The notes beneath the pieces are model-generated. The model did no database searches. It saw only the letters and a program-made list of their open reading frames with translations, and was not told the DNA's origin. Shown here one piece after another: positions 1-63,521 of a stretch of 64,000 nt of DNA. This stretch comes from Eledone cirrhosa (taxonomy: Eukaryota). Position 1 is the stretch's first letter. Each line of letters starts with the position of its first letter. The position numbers and the translations under genes are program-made. Location: assembly GCA_964016885.1 (NCBI GenBank), contig OZ024740.1, forward strand, positions 385,826,001 to 385,890,000, read 5' to 3'.

Positions 1-110
1 AGGACCCTGATGGTTGAGCTCCGTCCATTTCGACAGTTAGGTCTGAACAATTTGAATCTAGCTGTCGAAACGGCCAACGGCCAGAGCTCAGCCCTCTTTT
101 CAGATGCAGT
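1..110. mobile_element. PLE pseudo-LTR fold-back fragment with two half-hammerheads
   Basis: Imperfect palindrome centred on gacagttag...ctagctgtc. Both strands read stem II-GAAA-stem III (gagctc loop)-UC, as in the pLTR at 29.1 kb. Confidence 0.55.
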
Positions 111-6135: not shown

Positions 6136-6295
6136 AACAAAGATTTAATATAGAAAAGGTTTCTACGGAACTAGAACTGTTTCAAGAGTGCTAGTCCTGT
6201 AGAAGCCTTTTCTATATTAAATCTTTGTTGTCCTCACTCTTCTAATGTATTGAGTACCTTGTTTACTGTAGTTACTCCTGATTCTACTCGGGATT

Positions 6296-6299
<4 letters not shown>
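6136..6299. mobile_element. PLE-derived mini fold-back element between (TA)n tracts
   Basis: Inverted arms at 6136-6229, then a tail (cactct..gtattgagtac) similar to the pLTR tail at 29175-29205. Confidence 0.6.
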
Positions 6300-21600: not shown

Positions 21601-22205
21601 GTCAGGTCACCAGTTGGTGCTACTGGTAACATGTATCCCAGTACAACCTGACCCATGGTCGGGTCATTGGCGACTAAACTGGCAACCCCACCAAGGTTTC
21701 TTGGTAAGGAGGGTGGCTTTGGACATCCTGCAGGACTAAAAACAAAACCTGTCAAAGGGCAAAGGAGCTCTTAAGAGTCAATGGCCATCCAAAATCACTG
21801 AGAGAGATGACCCTTTAGCCTTTGTCAAGGCAGAATTCTAGGAGAAGGAAAACTCTGATATAACACCTGCAACTCTGATGGTATCCAATGATGTTGACTT
21901 GTTCTTCTTTTTGGTAAATATCATCTTGGTTAAGAGAGTGGGACTGGCTTCGTGCAGTGCCTTTGCTCACTATAAAAGCTTCACGGCACAGGCATTGCTT
22001 TATATCTGGAGATCTCTCTGCACTTGTCGTCACATGGTACCATGGGCCCAGCACTATGTGACAATAATTGTCACAAGTGTAGTGTTTGTACCAGAGTTTT
22101 CAAGTCGCTGGCTGGACTAAAAAGTCACACTCGTTCAGCGCATCGGTAGTTCTCCTAAATGGATATAAAGTAGTGGCCGTACACGAAAACGAGTTGGCAG
22201 CCACC
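21601..22205 (+). mobile_element. Non-autonomous bipartite RTE element, copy 3
   Basis: Near-identical to copies 1 and 2. Confidence 0.85.
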
Positions 22206-22226
22206 ATGTATATATGTATATATGTA

Positions 22227-22293
<67 letters not shown>

Positions 22294-22339
22294 ATCTATA
22301 TATATATATGTATGTATATATATATATATGTATGTATAT

Positions 22340-22380
<41 letters not shown>

Positions 22381-22461
22381 TATGTATGTATATATATATA
22401 CATATGTATATATATATACATATGTATATATATATGTATGTATATATATATATATATGATG

Positions 22462-22497
<36 letters not shown>

Positions 22498-22535
22498 AAT
22501 ATATGTATATATATATATGTGCATGTATATATATG

Positions 22536-22636
<101 letters not shown>

Positions 22637-25238
22637 GTCGGTTTATGATGTAGGCAGACGTGTTCTGGGATTGGTGCAGAGAAAACATCAGGACTGGTTT
22701 AATGAGAAAGATGTGCATATAGATGACTTGTTGGCTGATAAGAGGCGCGCTCTGTCACGCTACTTGACGGCAAGACCACAGGAGAGGAATACGTTGCATG
22801 AGGCGCTCAGGGATGTAAAATCACGTGTTAGGCGGAGTCTTTCTCAGATGAAGGATCAGTGGTGGAGTGAGAAGGCTGGTGAGATACAAACTGCGTCTGA
22901 TTGCAATAACACAAAGCTGTTGTACAGTCTCTTGCGTGAGGTTTATGGACCGTCTTCTTCTCTGGTGACACCGATTCGCAGCAAGGATGGCAGAGAGCTT
23001 CTTCGTGACTCACAGGGAATTCTACGAAGGTGGCGGGAGCACTTTGATGATCTTTTGAATCAGCCGTCTGTCGTCAGTGAAGATTTCCTCAATCTCATTC
23101 CGGAAAGTCCTGTGAAAGTAGCTCTCGCAGAGCCTCCGACACTTGTGGAGGTTGCAGTGGCTATTTCGAAGCTGAACAGTGGAAGATCTCCAGGTATGGA
23201 TGGCATACATGCTGAGCTCCTACAATATGGTGGTGAGAGACTCCTGCAACATCTTCACTCTCTGTTTGGAAGGATATGGGCTAATGAATCCGTGCCTGAG
23301 GACTGGAGAGATGCAGTAATGGTGGTCTTGTACAAGGGAAAGGGTAACAGGAATGATTGTGGGAACTACAGAGGTATATCATTGCTTTCTGTCGTGGGGA
23401 AAGTTTTATGTAGGGTGCTTCTGGACCGTCTGCTGACACACATTGCAGATTGTGTCCTTCCTGAAAGTCAATCTGGTTTTCGTGTTGGACGCGGCACTAC
23501 TGATATGATCTTCTCAGCTAGACAGCTCCAGGAGAAGTGCATTGAACAGGGCTTGGATCTGTATCAGGTTTTTGTCGATCTGACAAAGGCTTTCGATACT
23601 GTCAACAGAGATGCATTATGGAAGGTTCTCCAGAAACTTGGTTGCCCTGATAAGTTCCTTGCTTTAGTTAGGTCTTTCCATGACGACATGAAGGCTTGGG
23701 TTAATGTCGGAGGTAACATGTCGGAGCCTATCTCAGTAAAAAATGGAGTGAAACAGGGGGATATTCCAGCACCGACCCTGTTTGCCATATACTTTGCAAT
23801 GGTTTTCTGTATTGCATTCAGGAATTGCGAGCATGGTGTTTACATCCGATATCGAACCTCAGGCAGCATATTTAACATCAGGCGCTTTGCTGCGAAGACA
23901 AAAGTATTTACATCAGTCATAAGAGACCTCTTGTATGCAGATGATTGCGATCTTGTAGCGCACACAGAGAGTGATATGCAGCACATTTTGAATGTATTTT
24001 CTGACGCTTGCACTGCCCTGGGTTTGACTGTCAGTCTCAAGAAAACCGTCGTCATGTACCAACCTGCACCTGGTAGGCAGTACACTGAACCAAACATCTA
24101 TGTGTATGGCAAACGACTTGGAGTGGTTGATCAGTTTGTCTACCTGGGAAGCACTGTCAATCGATACGGCAACCTTGACAGTGAAATCTCACTTAGGATT
24201 AGGAAAGCAAGTGATGCTTTCGGAAAGCTAGAAAGGCGACTCTGGGGTCGGCGAGACATATGCAGGAGGACAAAGGTAAAGGTGTACAGGGCATGTGTAC
24301 TCTCTTGTCTTCTTTATGCCTGCGAGACCTGGGTCACATATCGACGCCACCTTAAGCAATTGGAGCGTTTCCATCAGATGTGTCTCAGACGGATACATGG
24401 CGTTCGCTGGAGGGACCACATCAGTGATGTCGAGATTTTGGAAAGCTCTATGTGTGACAGTATAGAAGCTCTTGTGCTTAGGCAGCGACTCCGTTGGAGT
24501 GGTCACCTTGCCAGGATGAAGGATTCTAGAATACCAAAACAACTCTTCTATGGAGAGTTGGTTAAAGGAAAACGACCGCCACATAAACCAAAAAAGAGGT
24601 ATAAGGATTCCTTGAAGGCCTCTCTGAAAGACGCTAACATCTCTGCTGATACATGGGAAAATATTGCTGCTGATCGTAATAAATGGAGAAAGACTGTATA
24701 TGAGGGAAAAGTTGCCTTTGAGGCATCTCGAATCGCACACGAGAAAGTAAAGCGGGACGTGAGGAAGGGTATTGCTGTTGCACTTCCAGACGGCGAGGGT
24801 CCTCCTATGTTTCTGACATGCAGCGTCTGTGCGAGACTCTGCCTAAGCAAAGCTGGACTCGAAAGTCATCTTCGCAGTCATAAAGTAAGACCAGTGGTTG
24901 ACTACCAGGCTGCTGTTGGAGATGCTACTCATCATGCTTGCCAAACATGTGGTAGAGAATGTAAATCAGCAGGAGGACTCAAGCGACATGCAAAAGTACA
25001 CGAACTCCAACCACAGCCGACTATTCCCAGTAAATGTTTTGGTTGCCGACTCTGTGCAAGACATTTTGGATCATTGGCTGGGCTAAAAAGCCACATTCGA
25101 TCGCAGCACTGTTAGTTGCTATCGTGTGTTTGTGTGTGTGTGTGTGTGTGTGTAGATATGCTTATGTGCGTGCGTGTGTGTGTATATATATATGAATATG
25201 TATATTATTATTGTTGTTGTCGTTATTATTATTATTGC

Positions 25239-25996: not shown

Positions 25997-26037
25997 ATAT
26001 ATATATATATGTATATATATATATGTATGTATGTATG

Positions 26038-26083
<46 letters not shown>

Positions 26084-26099
26084 TATGTATATATATATG

Positions 26100-26177
<78 letters not shown>

Positions 26178-26187
26178 AACCAGTAAG

Positions 26188-26281
26188 ACCCCGAAAGCTG
26201 AGCTCAAGCCGTTTTGACGGCTAATTCTGGACTAAATGAAAATTTATCCTGGTATTTAAATAGCCGATCTTCTCAAGGGGT
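26188..26281 (-). ncRNA. Type I hammerhead motif, mutated copy in the 3' pLTR
   Basis: Reverse complement of the 29062-29155 motif, but GAAA is now AAAA and GUC is now UUC. Confidence 0.6.
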
Positions 26282-27406
26282 AATTCCATATATGGTCAAA
26301 GTGATTGTCAAAAATCAGTAGTAATTCTGTGGTTGCAAATTAGTAGGGGAGATGGTGGCTAAACCTGCCAGTAGGAGAAAGAGGGGAGGGGGTGGAGTAG
26401 CCCCAATCAAGCGTTTGTAGTGCCAGCTACAGCTGGGCATGAGGTCAAAGAAGATACAGGGGAGGGGGGGGGGGGAGTCGGAACGGTAGGTAGAACAATG
26501 GGGGGTAGAAATATATAGGAAAGAAAAAAAATACTGAGAGTGAAGAAAAGCAAATAAGTGTAAAGAAAAACAAATGAGTGTAAAGAAAAAAGTAAAGTAA
26601 ATTAAAATCTACGACCTAGGTCTCTAGCTATTGTTAGTCTGGAATAAATAAATAAAGAAAGAAAGAAAGAAGTAAAGAAAGAAATAAAGAAATAACGAAA
26701 TAAGTAAAAGAACTAGGTGGGACGGAATAGGCGAGGAACCTTTTAAGAGGTATAAGTACGTAAATGATACGGTGACGGGTGAACAAAAGGGGCCAAAATA
26801 CTAAAGAGACTACCACGAAATAAACAATAAAGGTTTCCATCCCGGGCACAATTCCAGCAACCACCCAGTGCAGCAAAGTGAACTAATACGAGATAATAAT
26901 TCTGAGTCCCGAGAAAAATATATACTAATGCTAACTCTAAAAGATCTAAAACAAGCTACATGAAAGTTCGTACGAAGTAAAGGTAGAATACAGAAGAATA
27001 AATTCAGAATCCACCCCGCCCAAAAGAAAAGCGAAGAAAGAAATACTGAAACGAAAAAATAAGGCATAAGTGCCACTAAGAAATATAGAGGGCACAGAGA
27101 ATAGTGGGAGCGGTCGGAAAAAGGGGACAAGTATCCGGGGTCTAAACCAACTGCTATAAAGGGCGGAGTCCGCCAAATCTATCCTAGACTAGGGGAGGGG
27201 GTGGGGGTACTAAGGCTACAAGGGGCCAAAGGGCAGCCTCAGGTGGGCGAGAAAAGACGCCGACAAAGGAGAAGAGCTGGGGTAGAAGGACTAAGGAGAG
27301 AGGGGGGAAGGAAGGAAATAAAGGAAGCGATAAAGGAATACAAAGAAGATCTTACGTCTCCCTTGGCAAGCAGGGGTTACCCATTGCAAAATCGGCAAGT
27401 GGGGTG

Positions 27407-28762
27407 TTATAGCCCTAGTCTACCCCCCGGGTCATTATGGGGTTTGAGGGCGAGGTAAGTCCTACGCAATCTATGTTTACATGCAGTAACCAGTTCATCT
27501 TTCTTGTTTAGGAGTTGGTCCGTCGAAAACAGCATTTGTAAAGTTTCCTCCGAGCATAAATTGCACGGACGGCGTCCTCCCGTGTAAGAATTGGCTCTGG
27601 ACAGTAATCTCCAAGTGAGATCATAGGTGATGTTGTTGTCCTTGAGGTCCCATATGTGGCCCGAAAGTGTAGTGGCGTGACGCCGGGCCGGGTTTCGGAA
27701 GGTATGTCTATGTTGGTATAGCCGGGTCTTGAAGTCACATGCGGTAAGTCCTATATAGGCTTTGTTGGAGGTATCCGTCCTCACGTTGCACTGGTAGATC
27801 ACATTACGGTCTCTGCATCTATTGTCGAGTGGGCAAATAGATCTATCCGGGAAGTTACACCTCCTGGTCGGTTCTCCACTGCTATTTAGGTTATTTCTGC
27901 CATCGGGGTTGAGTTTTTTGTTGTTAGAGGAGACGATGTTTTGTGCGAAGTTTGGTGTAGTGCTGTAAGAGAGTTTGATGGTATTTTTGTTAATTATGTT
28001 GTGGTAGCGGTGTTGTAATGGGAAGTGTTTTTCAATGAGCCTAAAGAATAGTTTCCCGATGGGAGTTGTCACCTCTGCGTTGTGGGGAGGATTGAACCAT
28101 GTTACATTGCGTGAGCGGCGGTGTCTCCTGCTGGTTCCGCTAATGGGAGCTGGACGGTAGGATATTTCCTCCCGGAAACCACTCCGCTTGAGGGCCTGGT
28201 TGTAATAAGGCGCATGTTCATCGAATATCCGCTCATTAGCTGACAAACGGGATATGCGGAGGGAGATGTTTTTGACCAGGTTGTTTGTGATGTTCCTAGG
28301 ATGGTTTGATCGGCGGTGGATGTAGTGCAGATTGTCATTAGGTTTCCTGTATGGGTAGTACAGGTCGTTTTCGAGGTCGAGGGTCACGTCCAGGAAGTTT
28401 ACTCGGGTCAGGGACGTTTGTAGGGTTATTTTAAATCCCCAGTCGCGGAAGAATCTGATTAATTGTTTCCGGACCCGATCTGTACTACTGGGGTTGTACC
28501 CTTTAAGGGTAAGGAGCCCATCATCACGGTACAATCCACCACCGAATGCAGGAAACATATCAGTGAGTTTGGCTATTAGGAATAATCCTATTAGATCTGT
28601 GACCTCCGCCGAATCCGTGGCGCCCATGCTGACGTCGAAGGGTGAGTCGGGAGCTCTTTTTATCCATTTAGAGTCGTCAAAGAGTAAGACTGTCTTCCTG
28701 GCGTGGAGGATGATTTTTCTTTCCTGGTCGGTGATGGGCACAAGTGTTTCGGCGAAGTCCAA
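27407..28762 (-). CDS. PLE reverse transcriptase (partial) plus GIY-YIG endonuclease
   Basis: FDVSMGATDSAE, GLYRDDGL, VNFLDVTL, YRKP, CN..CPL...C linker, VIY..YIGLT..FKTRL.QH, CNLC. The frame continues upstream to about 28806 (SYYASIT), where it is truncated. Confidence 0.9.
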   Translation of the reverse strand: MDFAETLVPITDQERKIILHARKTVLLFDDSKWIKRAPDSPFDVSMGATDSAEVTDLIGLFLIAKLTDMFPAFGGGLYRDDGLLTLKGYNPSSTDRVRKQLIRFFRDWGFKITLQTSLTRVNFLDVTLDLENDLYYPYRKPNDNLHYIHRRSNHPRNITNNLVKNISLRISRLSANERIFDEHAPYYNQALKRSGFREEISYRPAPISGTSRRHRRSRNVTWFNPPHNAEVTTPIGKLFFRLIEKHFPLQHRYHNIINKNTIKLSYSTTPNFAQNIVSSNNKKLNPDGRNNLNSSGEPTRRCNFPDRSICPLDNRCRDRNVIYQCNVRTDTSNKAYIGLTACDFKTRLYQHRHTFRNPARRHATTLSGHIWDLKDNNITYDLTWRLLSRANSYTGGRRPCNLCSEETLQMLFSTDQLLNKKDELVTACKHRLRRTYLALKPHNDPGGRLGL

Positions 28763-29061
28763 GGCGGCAGTAAGTAGCGGTAAGGTGATTGAAGCATAGT
28801 AGCTCTCTATATTTTTTTTCTTTCCTATATATTTCTACCCCCCATTGTTCTACCTACCGTTCCGACTCCCCCCTCCCCCTCCCCTGTATCTTCTTTGACC
28901 TCATGCCCAGCTGTAGCTGGCACTACAAACGCTTGATTGGGGCTACTCCACCCCCTCCCCTCTTTCTCCTACTGGCAGGTTTAGCCACCATCTCCCCTAC
29001 TAATTTGCAACCACAGAATTACTACTGATTTTTGACAATCACTTTGACCATATATGGAATT

Positions 29062-29155
29062 ACCCCTTGAGAAGATCGGCTATTTAAATACCAGGATAAA
29101 TTTTCATTTAGTCCAGAATTAGCCGTCGAAACGCCTTGAGCTCAGCTGTCGGGGT
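29062..29155 (+). ncRNA. Type I hammerhead ribozyme, U3:A8 core variant
   Basis: ACCCC-UUGAGAA-GA(U)CGGCUA..UAGCCGUC-GAAAC..ugagcuca..GUC|GGGGU. Predicted cleavage after 29150. Confidence 0.7.
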
Positions 29156-29246
29156 CTTACTGGTTCCTATTACCCACTCTACTACCTCAAGTATTGAGTA
29201 CTTTGGTGCGTTATGGTTCACCTGGTTCCTTACCACATTTCCTTCG

Positions 29247-29394
<148 letters not shown>

Positions 29395-29461
29395 GTATGT
29401 ATATATATATATATATATGTATACATATATATATATATATATGTATGTATGCATATATATG

Positions 29462-35309: not shown

Positions 35310-35465
35310 ATGAAGGAATTGTGGTAAGGAACCAGATGGACCATAGCGCACCAAAGTACTCAATACTTAGGGTAGTAGAGTGGGTAATAGGAACAAGTAT
35401 GACCCCGACGGCAGAGCTCAAGCCGTTGAAATGGCTTGAGCTCTGCCGTTGGGGTCATACTTGTT

Positions 35466-35470
<5 letters not shown>
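35310..35470. mobile_element. PLE-derived mini fold-back element
   Basis: Homologous to the pLTR end at 29128-29248. 41-bp inverted arms at 35387-35470; flanked by (TA)n. Confidence 0.85.
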
Positions 35471-44476: not shown

Positions 44477-46404
44477 GCAACAGCGAAGGTGCTGATGGTC
44501 TCCGACTAGGCCACCTCAAGGAGTTGCTATCCCCCCTCTCCACTGAGGCCGGGTATCGCCTTCTGGGTGCAGTTGTGGCACTCACCAATAGGTTTCTCCA
44601 TGGCACCCTGGATCCTCATGCCTGAGGCCTCTTTTTTTCAGCTAGCCTGACTCGCTGTGAGCAATGTCTTCCGGAGGCTGGCTGCTAAGGTGGTCTGCAG
44701 GTCCATAACACATGAACTGGGTGAGGAGTTCAGTCCGGTGCAACTGGGTGTCGGCGTGTCCAGTGGCTGTGAGGGGGTCCGCACATGCAACCAGGCAGCT
44801 AGATGATGCTACGCTGGGCGAGCCCGTGGAGACTGTCTGCCATGACCTTCAATCGATGGTTCCTGCCCTGGCGGGAAGCGACCTCCACGTCGGAGGTGGT
44901 GAATGTCAGCTATGATGCTGAGAGCTTTGCAACCACTGTCTCGGACGTGCGGTCCATTCTCCACCAGATACAGGTGACCCGCAAAGAAGATGTCCTCATC
45001 CTCAGATAACCGATCCACCCGCTGGCCATCCGCTCCACCATCAGGTCTAGGCTCCAACAACTCCAGACCCTCATGAGCCGACTGGGCTTGATCGATGGCC
45101 ACCCAGCTCTCTTCCTGTTGAGGAACTGCTTCGCCATGCCAAAGCTCCTCCATACACTCCACAGCGCTCCGTACTACACCCAGACATCTCTCCTCGCTGA
45201 CCTCGATACTTGTATCCGAGCGGCAGCTGAGGAGATATGCAACGTCAGGTTTGACGACATTGGATGGCAACAGGCCACTTTACCTGTCAGATTTGGCGGC
45301 TGTGGCCTCCGGTCCCCAATCTTACTGGCTTTGCCTGCATTTCTTTCATCGGTAACCTCATGCCACGTCCTTGTCAGCAGGGTTCTCCAAAACACAATAG
45401 AACCCTCTGTGTTCAGGGAACGTGAGGTTGCCTGTGAGACGTGGAACAGGCTGGGACTTAGCCAAGTAGACGTCCCTCCTCCCCCTGTTGAAGTCAAGTC
45501 CCCCCAATGCATATGGGATGCCATCCAGTGCATCCTGGCCTCAGACAGGCTAATGCACCAGCTCGACCAGCACCGCCTTGCCTGTTTTCGCGCGGCCTCC
45601 AAACACCACAGTGGTGCCTAGCTCCATGCCTTGCCCTCCTTCTCCACTGGCACGCAGCTGGATAATGATAGCCTGCGCATCGGGTTTCCTTGAGGCTTGG
45701 ACTCCGGATCTGCAAGCCACATAAATGTAGCTGTGGATACACCATGGACTCTTTCGGCCTCCACCTGCTTTCCTGTCACCACAGTACCAGCCGCCTTCCA
45801 TGCCATGCTGCCCTCAACGAGGTCATTAAGCATGGCTTGGATGCTGCAGGCTTCCCTCCCAGCTCGAGCCAGTGGGGCTGGACCGAGGGGATGGCAAAAG
45901 GCCAGACGGTATGACCATCTTCCCGTGCCGCGGTGGCAAACCCTTGTCTGGGATCCCACTTGCAGCGACACTTTCTCCAGCGGCAACCTGGTGCAGTCTG
46001 CAACTAACCCAGGTACTGCTGCACGTTGGGCTGAAGATGCCAAACTCTCCAAGTACCGGTCGCTCTCCGACAGGTTCGCGTTCGTGCCCTTGGCACTGGA
46101 GACTTCTGGTGTCCTTGGCCCTAGGGCTACCTCCCTATTCACCACCATAGGCACTGAGCTAGCCAGCCGCAGGTGTGAGCCTCACGAGTTGGAATGGCTC
46201 TTCCAGTGCATCTCCCTTACCATCCTCCTGGGAAACGCCTTCTCCATCCTGTCCGCTGGGGCTGTGGGGAGGCCAGCACGTAGGACCCCATTTGCTCACC
46301 ATACGGATTAATATGAAAAGTTATAAACTATTGTATGTATTCATTGTGGTCAGTAAATAATAATTTTACTTTAAAAAAAAAATAAATAAATAAATAAATA
46401 AATA
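44477..46404 (+). mobile_element. CRE-like non-LTR retrotransposon (RT, CCHC knuckle, restriction-like endonuclease), degenerate
   Basis: GC-rich island. Across frames: RRLAAK, PVQLGVG..GCE, LDD, ATLPVRFGG.G, CSCG..HLLSC, DGKRPDG, LVWD.T, AE..K..KY, FVPLALETSG, GNA. An A/(TAAA)n tail and a 10-bp TSD, attatccata (44467-44476 and 46405-46414). Confidence 0.85.
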
Positions 46405-47845: not shown

Positions 47846-49110
47846 GCCCTAATACTACTAATAATAATATAATAATAATATAATGTAGCAAAAACCATTG
47901 CTGTTCAATTTTCCTGCACTTTAATGACCAAGAACACATGAGGAATGAATTTCCATATGGCATGATACCTGTGTCTATTCACAAGCATGAACTAGAGAGC
48001 AAATCTATATGCACTATCACACTTGCCTTCACTACAGTGGCCTTAACTGCAAAATCGCAAATACTATGTGGTCATTATTGCATTAGAACAATATGTACCC
48101 AGAAAACTTTGTACTCCTTGAATACATTTTCAGTTTAAGACCAGCCTGGGAGTGCTCTCATAGCTTACTATTCATTTGTGAAAGGAGTCAAACTATAGAA
48201 TAATATGTACCTCGAAGATGGGAATAGAATAACATAAGAAAATTAAAAGATAAATACATCATGCTAGTGTGGAAGATAGACGTTAAACGATGATGATGAT
48301 GATGATCACATAGAAGATAGCTAAGGTATTTTGGATAAGGTTTCCATTATAGTCAAAGAATAACAGGGAAAAAAGAAATACCAGTGATATATGTTACTGA
48401 TTGAAAGCCTATAACCTAATTAAAAGTCATTTATGTGGTGATACAACCTCCTAAAAATAGCAGCTGTCTTAAAAATATAATGGCATCTCAGATTAAGTAA
48501 TCCTTGTTACAATATGCCTGGGGGTGAATGAGATGGCTATATAAGGAAATACTGCAAAGTTTATTTGTTAACACACTGATTCTTCCATCCTATGCCCACA
48601 TATGGTGCTTCCGTATGGTCTCAATTGTGATGGCTAAATCAAACTTAAGATCACAGACATGATGGGCTTCTACAAAATTTTCATTTAACAAATTTCACTC
48701 ACATGGCTTTAATACTATAGCGTATGACACGTCTATGAAACAAAGACATTCAGTTTCTCATGCTGCTTAGTTTAAGAAACTGAGCATTTTCCTTATAAGG
48801 TTTTAATTTATAGTCAAGTATAACATTGTCAGAGATGCTATAGTTGGTCTTTATAATTTAGTCTTATTCTCTTATGAAGTTGCAAGGCCTAAATAGAAGT
48901 TGTACTGGATACATTGGTTATCATTTGTTTAGTATCTTCACCGAATAAATAAAAAACAACCACTTAAAACCTAACAGAGGCTATATTGATCTTTGGAAAA
49001 TATTTTATTTGTAACGTTTCTGTGCTGTAATTCTATGAATTCATTTGTGCTGTGTTTGTTATTGTTATTTATTGTTCTGCATTCTTATTTATATTTCTTT
49101 TATTCACTAG

Positions 49111-49521
49111 CACCAAATGGTCCGCCTAGAAGTCTTGTCGGGCGTCCTCTAAGCAATTCCTCTATTTTAATCAACTGGTTGCCCCCAGCACAAGATCACT
49201 GGAATGGCCCATTGACTGGTTATATAATTCGTTACAAACCAGAAAGTTACAATGACAAATCTGCCCAAGAAGAGGAAGTCGGTGTAAAAAACCAAATGAA
49301 AGTCATAGTTGGTCTGATAACATTTACACACTATGAAATCAAGATAGCTGCTCGCAATGCCAAAGGAATTGGTGTCTACAGCAAACCTATAACAGTCTTG
49401 ACAGAAGAAGGTCGCCCCACAGCACCACCAACTAATATCTCTGCTCTAGCTATTAATTCTACTGTTATTGAAGTAAAATGGAAGCCACCTCTTTCATCTC
49501 AGATTTTTGGATTACTCTTGG
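49111..49521 (+). CDS. sdk: Sidekick-like exon: FN3 #2 and start of #3
   Basis: cactag acceptor and gtatta donor; 411 nt, phase 1-1. Encodes PPNGPPRSLVGRPLSNSSILINWLPPAQDHWNGPLTGYIIRY...TEEGRPTAPP. Confidence 0.88.
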
Positions 49522-50655
49522 GTATTACTTTTATCTTACATCTTACTTTATTTTTTTTTATGTGTGACTTCTAACAAGAATGTTTCAAAAATTATTTTTA
49601 AATTGTTTTTCTTTGTTCATTTTAGTTTATTTTTTAGTTTATCATATTTTAAAACATTTTTGTTACTTTAGTCATTTGTCAGAATTATGAAACCCACCAC
49701 CTGAGTGCCAGTCCTTTATTAAGATAATTAAATTATCATCATCATCATTTAATGTCCATTTTCCCTGCCATCAAGGTTTACTTTATAGCTGAAAAGTCTT
49801 AGTTTGTTTAGAAAGCCATGCAAGTGGGTTAGAAAGCAATGCAAGTGGGTTATTTGTGTCAAGGTAATAAGTCAGAAGGGAATTGAGAGAGAAAGTAAAA
49901 GTGGGAGAAAGAAAATAAAAGAAAGGAAGAATGACTGAAAGTTTCCTTAGCAATTTAATATTCCCAAATTTTTTCTGATTAACCAGTCATTATCAAGACC
50001 TCATACTTGGCTTGTTATATATACCACCATCATAATGTTGTAATCAAACTAATATCGTTTTTTTTTTTTGTCATTTGTAAATGTTCCAAAATAGTGTAGC
50101 AAGTTTGGCAGTTGAAAAGACTAACCACAATATCTACCTCATATATTAAAACAGAATGCAATAAAAAGGAATAAATTGCTTTCATTGAGATTTATGGATA
50201 TAATTGAATCAGAAAAACATGAGATATAACACATTACAATGAATGAATTACTCAGAGACACTATCTGCATTAAAAATAGCTGTTGAGTGTTAACATAATT
50301 AATATAAGGAGCATTAAAAAGTTAATTAGAAATAATTATGCAGTGATGAAAAGAGAGTATTATTCAATGACTAATATAATATTAATTAGTCTAACAAATA
50401 TTTGGGACAACATATTTCAATTTTATTAGATCTTCTCAAGGAAACATGAGCTCTACCATAGTTGCTGAAATAATGATGTGACAATCGCTAAATAAATATA
50501 TCATACACTAGTTAGCATAGAATACTAGCTTATTTTATATCAAGTCATATGTGAAACACCATACTTATATAATTATACATCCCGCTGATGTAATTGTTCA
50601 TATTCATAGACATATAGATATTCACACCTAAAGACTGAAAGGTAAGATACCACTG

Positions 50656-58099: not shown

Positions 58100-58426
58100 G
58101 TAAGATGATTTTATAAATATATATATATACATGAGCATTTTAAGGCCATTTCCAGCTAAAACAGAGGTTTGCCTTGTGAACCCCATGATAAGCTTCATAC
58201 TCAACATGGGATCCTTTTTGATTCAATGTTTTACAGCTGGATGCCCTTCCTGGTGCCAACCTGTTTACTTGCCTATTACAACACAAAGCAATACAGTGTA
58301 CTTATTTTAAACTAGATACACACCGGGACTTATGTATATATATAAACATGGAAAAGTGAATTTAAAAACAATAGTGATAATGATGATTACTCTTAATTTT
58401 TTTTACTTTTTATTTTTATTATTTAG

Positions 58427-58797
58427 TACCTCCTGGTGCACCAAGTGGATTAGGAATCAGCAACATTCATCCCACATTTTGCCAACTAAAATTCACCCCA
58501 GGTTTTGATGGTAAAACTTCAATTACACAGTGGATTATTGAAGCTCAGATTAATTTCAATAAACAATGGAAAGAAATCTACAGTGTATTTGCTCCAGATG
58601 CTACAACACTGAAAATTTCAAATCTTCATCCTTACACACATTATCGACTTCGTATTATAGCTGAAAATACTGCTGGTCGTAGTAACCACAGTGAACCATC
58701 TCGACTGTTTCAAACAAGCCCTGCTCCACCCAGTAGACCTCCTGGCAACGTTACAGTTCAAGCCATCAATGAAACAGCCTTTCGTATCAGCTGGATG
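58427..58797 (+). CDS. sdk: Sidekick-like exon: FN3 #5 and start of #6
   Basis: atttag acceptor and gtgaga donor; phase 1-0. Encodes PGAPSGLGISNI...FTPGFDGKTSITQWIIEAQ, close to the Sdk GxDGKTSI.W..EAQ motif. Confidence 0.92.
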
Positions 58798-59757
58798 GTG
58801 AGAAATTTTTTGTATAAAGATCTAAAAGAAAGTATATCATTTGTAACACATCCATTCTATGTTTTATATGATTATTTTTTTTCTCAAATACCAGCTTCGT
58901 TTCACATGCAAAATGCATTTTTCTTTTTACTGTTAAGTCAAGGAGAGAAAGGCTGTGCTTATGTCCCTTTTCAGGGCCTACAAGTCTGTAGGGAGAGAGG
59001 AAGGTACTTTTAAACTGGGAACCTTGCAATAGAATGGACTTCACTCAAGGCACACGAGGGCAAGGTGGAGGAATTAAGTAAGGTAACAGTTTAAGTATAT
59101 CTCCCAAGTAGAGGAAAGTAAGATTTGAACTCAGAACACAAAGAGCCAGAAAAAATAAAGCAAGCCATTGTGCTCTGATCTAATGATTCTGAGTCAATCA
59201 TATTAAATTAAAAATATTAATGTTTGAACTATATAATGCTGGTATTTAACTCTAGTTTTTCTGTTATAGTAAGTGCCTCTTAGATCTATGCTAGATCTAT
59301 GGAGTTACATGTCCATAAGAATATTATTGCTTGTGTGTATGTTTGTAGTATGTGTGTGTGTGAATAATTAGATATAGTAGACTATATTATGCATATACAC
59401 ATACATGCACACATATACACATTCATATTGTAGGATAAGTGACATAATTGACTGTCTTTTGGAGGGAAAACCTTCCATTTTTTTTTGGGGGGGGGGGGGG
59501 CTTTTATGACTTTGCTACAATATTGCAAATATTCACTATTAATTACATTCATTTAAATTTTGCAGTAATACAGGACTAACGTAGTGTGTATCTAGATTTC
59601 AAAATTCTGTCCAAAGTTAATACTTTGTTTTGTTTTTTGTTTTATTTTTGACAACTAAAATGTTCAATTTTATATAGAATGTTTAAAAAAATATAAATGT
59701 TATTAATGTGTACCAATTCTAAAATATATATTCTAGCTAACAGTTCCCTAACCACTG

Positions 59758-62704: not shown

Positions 62705-63397
62705 ACCCAATATCTCATTTATCATGACAAACACTGTGTTATGCCAGTGTGGATGTGTGCAATAAATGTTGGGAAATAGTCTTATCCTTCTGGATCGTGT
62801 GGAGATCTGAGGTCTTGTAGGTCTTGTAAGTCTGATGTTTGCACGAAGTCACATGTTCATCCCTTTTGTTTAGTAGTTGTTCCTTAATAAACAAAATTTG
62901 AATGGTTTCTTCGGAGCATAAATTGCATGGCAGCAGCTCCCATATAAGGTTTGGCCTTAGATAAAGTACTCCATTTCAGGTCGTAGGGGGTGTTATTATT
63001 GTGGAGGTCCCATATGTGGCTGTATAGTATTTAGCATTTTTCTAGGCCCAGTTTCTAAAGCTGTGTTGGTGCTGGTAGAACCTTGTCTTAAATTTGCAGG
63101 CAGTTAATCCTGTGCAGGTTCTGTTGCTGGCATTTGATGTTTAGAGAAAAGTTGTTTTGATCTGTGCAGTTCCATGGCCTGGTTTTGTCATTGCTGAAGT
63201 CTGAGTGAGATCTTACAGAGTTTAGTTTAGGAGTGTTGGAGGAAGCAATGATTTGTGTGAAGTTAAGTATGATGCTATAAGAAAGTTTGACAGCCATCAG
63301 GCCCCAACTCTCTCTAATATAGTCAAACTCTACTATCGCAAGTATTGAGTACTCTGTTGAATAATGGTCTTACTAGTTTAATATTGGTTAAATCCTG
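62705..63397 (-). mobile_element. Degenerate PLE (GIY-YIG region) with an inverted pLTR tail at about 63297-63397
   Basis: VKLSYSIILNFTQIIASSN matches IKLSYSTTPNFAQNIVSSN of the 27-kb PLE. It also shares gagcataaattgca and gaggtcccatatgtggc, and the tail ctctactatcgcaagtattgagtac. Confidence 0.75.
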
Positions 63398-63416: not shown

Positions 63417-63521
63417 GGAAAAGAGTCAGGACACCAACGGCTGAGCTCCTGCTGTTGCGACAGCTACTTTGTACTCTGGTGCGTTATGGTCCACCTGGTA
63501 TCTTACCACACCTTCTTTGTT
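63417..63521. mobile_element. PLE-derived mini inversion element in (TA)n
   Basis: The minus-strand 3' half of the hammerhead (63417-63466) is joined to a plus-strand pLTR tail (gtactctggtgcgttatggtccacctggt..taccaca..gtt). Confidence 0.75.

What the first reader, a model, noticed from the sequence alone, without database searches (positions are those of the whole stretch)
35310..35470. Tiny Penelope-derived hairpin elements that invert at the hammerhead core
Seen: this 160-bp island in (TA)n consists only of the pLTR end of the 26-29 kb PLE, read backwards and then forwards. The 41-bp arms (2 mismatches) turn at the hammerhead GAAA. It has the same asymmetric ends as the full element: one stops at ttcc(TA)n, the other has an extra ~80-nt tail. 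The islands at 1-110, 6136-6299 and 63417-63521 also turn at stem II or GAAA. Known: PLEs carry hammerheads in pLTRs and often have inverted 5' pLTRs. Inferred: the folded ribozyme acts as a recurrent RT arrest or template-switch site and produces a class of non-coding mini fold-backs, which may themselves be mobile.
Basis: partly seen in the sequence, partly recalled or inferred. Interest (0 to 1): 0.75.

Follow-up and report, generated by a model that had tools for sequence, protein, structure and literature searches.

The report
Run-off stubs of Hydra-clade Penelope element
This 160-base mirror-image insert is one of tens of thousands of short back-to-back stubs of a Penelope-like jumping gene; most stubs stop about 29 bases after a TATA-like box rather than at the ribozyme core, so they likely record two copying events running off the start of the element's RNA, not a ribozyme roadblock or a separate mobile element.

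Summary
The island is real: 41-bp arms, 2 mismatches, one-sided tail. It is a stub of the neighbouring Hydra-clade Penelope-like element. Such stubs are its main product: 77 of 97 sampled exact-tail copies, among 37,732 tails genome-wide. The GAAA turn is a minority class: 567 exact loci, formed in several subfamilies at a natural 6-bp inverted repeat. In the unbiased sample 122 of 166 arm ends lie at 29104-29118, peaking at A29110/G29111, and 2 at GAAA. That edge is predicted unstructured and lies 29 nt after a TATA-like box. A second family stops 30 nt after TATAAATA, upstream of its hammerhead. Arms of one insertion are both short or both long (90 of 91); junctions are mostly unique (79 in 83). 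Best reading: two cDNAs primed at two internal sites run off one RNA 5' end and are end-joined; no RNA data confirm the start. The scan already reported this model in at least 14 genomes, and Hydra stubs in this one. Not seen in those listings: here the inferred start lies inside hammerhead loop II, separating start-site from ribozyme explanations.

The parts
35310..35470 (.). Fold-back stub (GAAA-turn class) of a Hydra-clade Penelope-like family, inserted in (TA)n
   Evidence: 40 scored genome matches, 39 of them spanning nearly the whole query; 567 exact loci with this type of turn
35310..35386 (-). Tail (~78 nt) between inferred RT start site 1 (TTCC|TAT) and site 2 (TTCGT|TAT); equals 29171-29248
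   Evidence: blastn 90%; in L087 the tail continues into the 5' part of the next monomer
35387..35427 (-). Tail-bearing arm, equals 29130-29170 (stem III, scissile bond, 3' strand of stem I)
35421..35470 (+). Short arm, equals 29121-29170; it supplies the central loop. The junction lies in the natural 6-bp inverted repeat around GAAA
26175..29248 (-). 5'-truncated Hydra-clade PLE: 2.6-kb arm ending at site 1 plus a 446-bp inverted arm with tail, 98% identical over 368 bp
27407..28834 (-). C-terminal 475 aa of the RT / GIY-YIG ORF (YRDDG, GIY-YIG-like core, CxxC...CxH)
   Evidence: motifs scored on the complete natural frame in L087; no Pfam hit
29057..29167 (+). Type I hammerhead motif, U3-A8 core at 29067-29073, long loop II, GAAA 29128-29131, predicted cut after C29150. 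This arm has a stem III mismatch at 29134; the mirror copy (about 26176-26286, - strand) has G12 changed
   Evidence: U3-A8 variant described in PMC4209133 (passages)
29081..29088 (+). TATA-like box (TATTTAAA) inside stem II / loop II, 29 nt before the run-off edge; promoter function inferred
   Evidence: sequence; variants across 12 copies; homologous position in family B
29110..29111 (+). Run-off edge (inferred transcription start, initiator-like TTAGT/TCAGT)
   Evidence: furthest arm ends here in 31 of 83 copies and at 29106-29114 in 63 of 83; direct restarts; read joints
1..110 (.). Decayed fold-back of a diverged subfamily of the same family, turning in loop II; begins upstream of the window
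   Evidence: L181
6134..6299 (+). Fold-back stub of a second PLE family (family B, canonical CUGAUGA hammerhead), turning at GAAA
63417..63521 (+). Inverted stub without overlap: short arm (to about 29120) joined to mid-tail (about 29198); not a hairpin

Best explanation
The island is a head-to-head stub of a Hydra-clade Penelope-like retrotransposon, likely built at insertion from two cDNAs that were primed from opposite strands of a cut (TA)n target at two internal start sites on one RNA and then end-joined. Steps: (1) shown: one arm ends at TTCC|TAT (site 1) and the other 78 nt further 3' at the tail end (site 2), both abutting (TA)n. (2) Inferred: transcripts start at about A29110, 29 nt after a TATA-like box; priming on the 5'-most copy of the two sites gives run-off cDNAs of about 60 and 140 nt, while priming on the downstream copy of a read-through transcript gives long insertions like the 26-29 kb one. 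(3) Inferred: the two cDNA 3' ends are trimmed and joined blunt, with short inserts, or through microhomology. (4) Inferred for this island: joining (or a later central deletion) used the 6-bp inverted repeat flanking GAAA, a recurrent 1-2% class. (5) Inferred: a minor class ends at the hammerhead scissile bond and was copied from 3' cleavage fragments. Stubs are likely dead: they lack the TATA box and the ribozyme core.
For: Edge: 122 of 166 arm ends at 29104-29118 (118 without six hand corrections), 3 upstream of it, 2 at GAAA. Family B: 11 of 15 short fold-backs have their furthest arm at 0..+7 from the A that lies 30 nt after TATAAATA, and none between -1 and -37. The edge follows TATA spacing in both families but lies inside the hammerhead in one and before it in the other. 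No structural barrier at the edge. Direct (non-inverted) restarts in 5'-region-bearing loci: 9 of 29 distinct loci, 6 at 29107-29113, 2 at 29151 (one read by eye), 1 unresolved. Shared template end: 83 short/short, 7 long/long, 1 mixed, against about 14 mixed expected if each arm stopped independently (Fisher p 1e-9); arms that pass +1 do so together (p 1e-4). Two primings: the short arm reaches at least 4 nt further 5' than the tail arm in 30 of 83 copies, and in the 26-29 kb element each arm holds sequence missing from the other. In-copy arms share subfamily letters (44 of 62 against 8.3 by chance). Raw reads of 3 other samples show opposite-strand joints, 8 of 11 with one side at 29106-29113. 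Two internal RT start sites bounding the tail were shown in vitro for the anole PLE (PMC11167929, first two of four parts read); Penelope transcription starts within the pLTR (PMC2377424, passages).
Against: No RNA run was available, so the 5' end at 29110 is not observed. The TATA-like box is degenerate in several subfamilies, and D. virilis Penelope has a TATA-less internal promoter (PMC2377424, passages). The edge is soft: furthest arms spread over 29104-29114, and 34 of 100 listed arms that reach 29110 continue in template (tallied by eye; 3 more ambiguous). A cap-templated extra C is not established: C 16 vs T 3 after the edge, but many of the Cs can be the partner arm's first base. A bound protein or a tertiary loop II contact as roadblock is not modelled. 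L036 is a mixed copy. One same-subfamily pair (L067, L102) shares a junction, and 2-4 of 62 copies have arms with different subfamily letters. Microhomology is rare overall (55 of 83 have none). The sample comes from the first 18 Mb of one chromosome.
Confidence: 0.72

Rival explanations
1. One reading: the folded hammerhead arrests RT or makes it switch template, so cDNAs turn at the core or stems.
For: Ends fall inside the hammerhead footprint in family A. The GAAA junction recurs at 567 loci. A secondary cluster lies at the scissile bond. A weak hairpin is predicted in loop II next to the edge.
Against: Only 2 of 166 ends at GAAA. The peak lies past all three stems' 3' strands, in a predicted open region. 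The family B edge lies before its hammerhead. Independent arrest predicts about 14 mixed copies and 1 was seen.
Confidence: 0.08
2. Self-priming (snap-back): one cDNA or an antisense template folds on itself and is copied back, as proposed for head-to-head Penelope palindromes in Adineta.
For: Published explanation (PMC3846280, Discussion passage). In 38 of 83 copies the two ends lie within 3 nt. Arms share subfamily letters. The GAAA class has a ready 6-bp stem.
Against: In 30 of 83 copies, and in this island, the short arm holds 5' sequence missing from the tail arm, while only the tail arm holds the tail; one strand cannot template both without a later deletion. In the 26-29 kb element the arms are 2.6 kb and 446 bp, each with unique sequence. 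Ends match landmarks of the sense transcript.
Confidence: 0.12
3. The minis are a non-autonomous mobile class (MITE-like or retrozyme-like) amplified from master copies.
For: Very high number. One identical junction recurs hundreds of times. Each stub retains both inferred start sites, so a read-through transcript of a stub could be copied again. 257-bp tandem units starting at the edge exist (L153).
Against: 79 distinct junctions in 83 copies. The recurrent junction occurs with at least 6 subfamily keys and with the loop in both orientations. The most common stub keys (CCAGTAAG, AAAGTATG, CGAGTAGG, CAAGTAAG) also occur in long copies. Stubs lack the TATA box and the ribozyme core.
Confidence: 0.06
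4. Assembly or library artefact.
For: Palindromes within (TA)n are hard to assemble.
Against: The arms differ at 2 CpG positions. Copies have distinct flanks on many chromosomes. Opposite-strand joints at the same positions occur in raw reads of three other samples and in short-read contigs.
Confidence: 0.02

Closest known systems
Hydra clade of C-terminal EN+ Penelope-like elements (Craig et al. 2021, PMC8557442; section 11 and passages read)
   Same: RW[R], DKT, CxCx5C linker, CxxC...CxH, C-terminal GIY-YIG, hammerhead in the pLTR, (TA)n insertion, partial tandems, inverted 5'-truncated copy and one-sided tail
   Different: Monomer about 3.54 kb (described: generally under 3 kb); RWR instead of RWK; tail about 78 nt instead of 30-40; U3-A8 hammerhead with a ~37-nt loop II; about 80% of tailed copies are ~190-bp fold-backs with a fixed edge, which the passages read do not describe
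PAc, Poseidon element of Anolis (Frangieh et al. 2024, PMC11167929; abstract and main text, parts 1-2 of 4)
   Same: Two internal RT start sites that bound the tail; both target strands cut and extended; AT-rich target; hammerhead not needed for insertion in vitro
   Different: Different clade; the parts read do not describe head-to-head stubs or run-off at a transcription start; the paper saw no RNA ends at the cleavage site, whereas here a minor class of genomic copies ends there
Inverted-pLTR Penelope insertions with junction palindromes in Adineta vaga (Arkhipova et al. 2013, PMC3846280; passages)
   Same: Head-to-head inverted pLTR, optional tail, TATA and Inr-like motif in the pLTR, solo pLTRs
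   Different: Explained there by self-priming on an antisense template; low copy number. Here tens of thousands of copies, with ends tied to sense-strand landmarks and asymmetric arms
LINE-1 twin priming and retroviral minus-strand strong-stop DNA (recalled from own knowledge; not from a call)
   Same: Two target-primed cDNAs joined head to head; a short cDNA running off the RNA 5' end
   Different: L1 twin-primed halves copy adjacent RNA segments and give an inversion; here both copy the same segment and give a palindrome
Non-LTR retrozymes (bioRxiv 10.64898/2026.07.22.740005; part 1 of 5 read)
   Same: Short, non-coding, PLE pLTR-derived
   Different: Retrozymes are direct tandem units, each with a whole type I hammerhead; these stubs are inverted and lack the core

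Membership tests
Hydra-clade PLE (parent element) | Single ORF, RT then C-terminal GIY-YIG endonuclease | tested here: met
   786-aa open frame in L087 with YRDDG at 415 and VIY...YIG at 658; by motif only, Pfam gave no hit
Hydra-clade PLE (parent element) | DKT instead of DKG; RWK motif; no GxKF/Y | tested here: met
   DKT at 184, RWR at 104 (conservative variant), no GxK[FY] match
Hydra-clade PLE (parent element) | CxCx5C linker; CxxC and CxH around the conserved E and N | tested here: met
   motifs at 639 and 737
Hydra-clade PLE (parent element) | Insertion into (TA)n; hammerhead in the pLTR | tested here: met
   flanks; structure
Hydra-clade PLE (parent element) | Generally short (<3 kb) | tested here: not met
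   tandem period about 3.54 kb; a tendency in the paper, not a strict criterion
Hydra-clade PLE (parent element) | Placement in the Hydra clade in an RT phylogeny | not tested
   no reference sequences fetched, no tree built
Type I hammerhead ribozyme | Conserved core with free position 7, GAAA, NUH triplet, three stems | tested here: met
   12 natural copies: position 7 takes all four bases; 3-8 pair U-A in 8, U-G in 1, unpaired in 3; 96.4% of stem cells paired against 26-55% when slid
Type I hammerhead ribozyme | Covariation in stems | tested here: inconclusive
   no two-sided change; pairs mostly invariant; not above shuffles; MFE folds recover only part of the structure
Type I hammerhead ribozyme | Self-cleavage | not testable with these tools
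   indirect only: copies beginning at 29150-29152
Non-LTR retrozyme | Tandem direct units each with a complete type I hammerhead | tested here: not met
   the island is inverted and lacks the core and the 5' strand of stem I
MITE-like element amplified as a unit | Copies share one fixed internal structure | tested here: not met
   79 distinct junctions in 83 copies
MITE-like element amplified as a unit | Target-site duplication | tested here: inconclusive
   cannot be read in (TA)n flanks

The most novel reading that the evidence does not exclude
This family has wrapped its hammerhead around its own promoter: the TATA box and transcription start sit in stem II / loop II. Transcripts from the pLTR would then carry no cuttable ribozyme at their 5' end, and only read-through or tandem RNA could fold and cleave. 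The ~30,000 stubs would be a genome-wide, single-base record of capped starts, cleaved ends and double priming on one RNA, overturning the antisense self-priming model for PLE inverted ends.
Probability: 0.45. Interest if true: 0.65.

Novelty: new variant of a known kind. Interest (0 to 1): 0.42.

Why it matters
How PLEs make their inverted ends and one-sided tails is stated as open in PMC8557442 (Discussion passage). These stubs give thousands of independent insertion junctions with sharp predictions: where the RNA starts, where it is cut, and that both cDNAs use one template end. Family A is a useful natural control, because the inferred start lies inside the ribozyme and not at its front edge. 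In practice, such palindromes could be mis-annotated as MITEs, miRNA hairpins or ribozyme families. The single island is ordinary, and the general model has already surfaced many times in this scan.

Tried and rejected
Rfam on 26000-29400 found no hammerhead, only repeat-driven noise. Pfam found nothing on the partial or complete PLE protein. The repeat finder on the window was swamped by (TA)n. No RNA holder was listed. RAD-seq depth and read-end tables were not used as breakpoint evidence: the ends at 29058, 29106 and 29117 coincide with AATT sites and likely reflect the restriction enzyme. Contig word depth (X1, X4) shows the same step but is no copy number. Cross-organism contigs gave only 1-37 records each and no joints, so they were uninformative. 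A genome-wide count of all loop II fold-backs was not obtained; the share comes from the sample. The first genome search is biased to GAAA-type turns and was not used for the histogram. Cap-derived C: inconclusive. Stem covariation: none. The last line (restart binomial) used an ad hoc null and is not relied on. Rows dropped before counts: L055 (double-tail palindrome), 1 unparsed copy (L076), L154 (same locus as L153); restarts at 29120, 29131 and 29170 belong to neighbouring elements. Six arm ends were corrected by hand for internal deletions. Paper searches found no paper describing run-off stubs or a start site inside a PLE hammerhead; the library lacks most subscription papers and no supplements were read, including the hammerhead file S2 of PMC8557442, which may bear on the U3-A8 / long loop II form.

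Full report
Observation. The island is as described: arms 35387-35427 and 35430-35470, 41 bp with two mismatches, and a tail on one side. Both mismatches are G/A changes at CpG sites, consistent with decay after insertion. All of it maps to 29121-29250 of the 26-29 kb element, which I use as coordinate reference. Of the three other islands, 1-110 turns in loop II, 63417-63521 is an inversion without overlap, and 6136-6299 turns at GAAA but belongs to another family.

Parent element. A natural complete monomer lies in L087: pLTR, tail, a 786-aa open frame, then pLTR ending at TTCC(TA)n. Tandem arrays have a period of about 3.54 kb. [quoted passage not shown] No tree was built. The pLTR holds a type I hammerhead: stem I at 29057-29066 with 29151-29167, core UUGANAA, stem II with a ~37-nt loop, GAAA, stem III and GUC. 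Across 12 natural copies position 7 takes all four bases and 96% of stem cells pair, without covariation. The U3-A8 core is a described PLE variant (PMC4209133 passages). Cleavage was not tested.

How common. A 29-nt tail motif has 37,732 exact matches. I parsed 108 tail copies from the first 18 Mb of C1, chosen without regard to junction: 97 exact (of the first 100 listed) and 11 near matches. Result: 84 inverted stubs, 13 without inversion, 10 long, 1 unparsed. After dropping one double-tail copy, 83 stubs have a median length of 189 bp. Scaling 77 of 97 gives roughly 30,000 stubs, an extrapolation from one region.

Where they turn. Of 166 arm ends, 122 lie at 29104-29118, 13 in the 3' strand of stem II, 2 at GAAA, 13 in stem III, 7 at 29149-29153, 6 further downstream and 3 upstream of 29104 (118 without six hand corrections). 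The furthest arm ends at 29106-29114 in 63 of 83 copies and at 29110-29111 in 31. The island's own class, turning in the 6-bp inverted repeat around GAAA, has 567 exact loci, about 1.5% of the tail count (different patterns, so approximate). It appears with at least six subfamily keys shared by both arms, and with the loop taken from either arm, so it arises repeatedly.

Why there. Arrest by the fold is unlikely. At 29106-29113 the RNA still ahead of RT costs 0.01-0.14 kcal/mol to open, against about 4 at 29137-29139 and 29154-29157, and ends correlate negatively with the barrier (secondary structure only). The edge lies 29 nt after TATTTAAA (29081) at an initiator-like TTAGT/TCAGT (the initiator label is recalled). 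Family B (13,120 tails) has TATAAATA 30 nt before an A at which its stubs end: 11 of 15 short fold-backs have their furthest arm at 0..+7, but there the canonical hammerhead lies wholly downstream. The constant is distance from the TATA box, not position in the ribozyme. Direct restarts, which involve no hairpin, fall at the same place: of 29 distinct loci with the 5' region, 9 restart, 6 at 29107-29113, 2 at 29151 and 1 unresolved. This is what template jumps onto or off RNA 5' ends would leave. The excess at 29150-29152 (7 of 24 ends in 29132-29167, p=0.003) fits templates cut by the ribozyme.

One template, two primers. Among 91 copies with two arms, 83 are short/short, 7 long/long and 1 mixed; independent stopping predicts about 14 mixed. 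Three further long copies have no inverted arm within about 8 kb. Arms that overrun +1 tend to do so together. The short arm reaches at least 4 nt further than the tail arm in 30 copies, the reverse holds in 15, and they are within 3 nt in 38. Only the tail arm has the tail, so a single strand folding back cannot explain the first group without later deletion. This fits the in vitro finding of two internal start sites bounding the tail and extension of both strands (PMC11167929), and it conflicts with the antisense self-priming proposal (PMC3846280). Junctions look like end-joining: 55 of 83 have no microhomology and 35 have inserted bases.

Are they mobile? There are 79 distinct junctions in 83 copies; the repeated ones are blunt or microhomology joins, plus one same-subfamily pair seen by eye (L067, L102). 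The most common stub keys also occur in long copies. Stubs lack the TATA box and the ribozyme core. Low-level re-copying is not excluded.

Artefact check. Raw RAD reads of three other samples show 11 opposite-strand joints in the pLTR end, 8 with one side at 29106-29113. This locus itself was not covered by a read test. No RNA holder was listed.

What is known. Inverted 5'-truncated copies and tails are standard for PLEs (PMC8557442, PMC3846280). My six paper searches found no account of run-off stubs or of a start site inside a PLE hammerhead. Earlier scan notes reached the twin-priming model in at least 14 genomes (read after I had recorded that reading and the start-site idea). Others reached the TATA+30 run-off reading and the Hydra assignment in this genome (read after my own tests). 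They are unchecked AI notes and are not counted as support. The element that I did not see in those listings is a family whose inferred start lies inside loop II.

Verdict. It is a new variant of a known kind, with interest 0.42. Confidence in run-off plus double priming is 0.72, limited by the absence of RNA data.

Noticed in passing
window 48990-49574 and 58387-59013 (+): Exons with fibronectin type III domains (Pfam fn3, weak DSCAM C-terminal FN3); the repeats likely lie in introns of a large Sidekick/DSCAM-like gene (name inferred).
   Followed up: partly
window 22083-25115 (+): Open 1010-aa frame with RVT_1 and C-terminal C2H2 zinc fingers, an RTE-like LINE truncated within (TA)n; related 3' ends recur at 19.9-21.1, 22.1 and 25.8 kb.
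   Followed up: partly
L153/L154 (G000:C1:27008140-27011421): Three head-to-tail 257-bp units, each starting at 29107 and running into the 5' region, behind a short inverted arm: a retrozyme-like array without a complete hammerhead.
   Followed up: partly
L157, L175, L177, L179, L180, L087: Mirror layout: the inverted arm carries the tail and the sense arm ends at site 1 or continues, so either start site can be used on either target strand.
   Followed up: no
L094 (+, 5154), L069, L096, L031: The two arms of one stub carry different subfamily letters, possibly two templates or gene conversion.
   Followed up: no
window 29157-29177 and 29219-29238: The two inferred start sites lie near a similar motif (CTGGTTCCT...TACC), seen by eye; it may be a recognition element.
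   Followed up: no
window 63310-63395: A further tail-like segment of another subfamily directly upstream of the 63417 stub (83% over 42 nt to the tail); stubs cluster in each other's (TA)n flanks (also L029, L065, L068).
   Followed up: no
window 45010-46311 (-): Two open frames resembling the RT thumb and restriction-like endonuclease end of a non-LTR element (label recalled).
   Followed up: no
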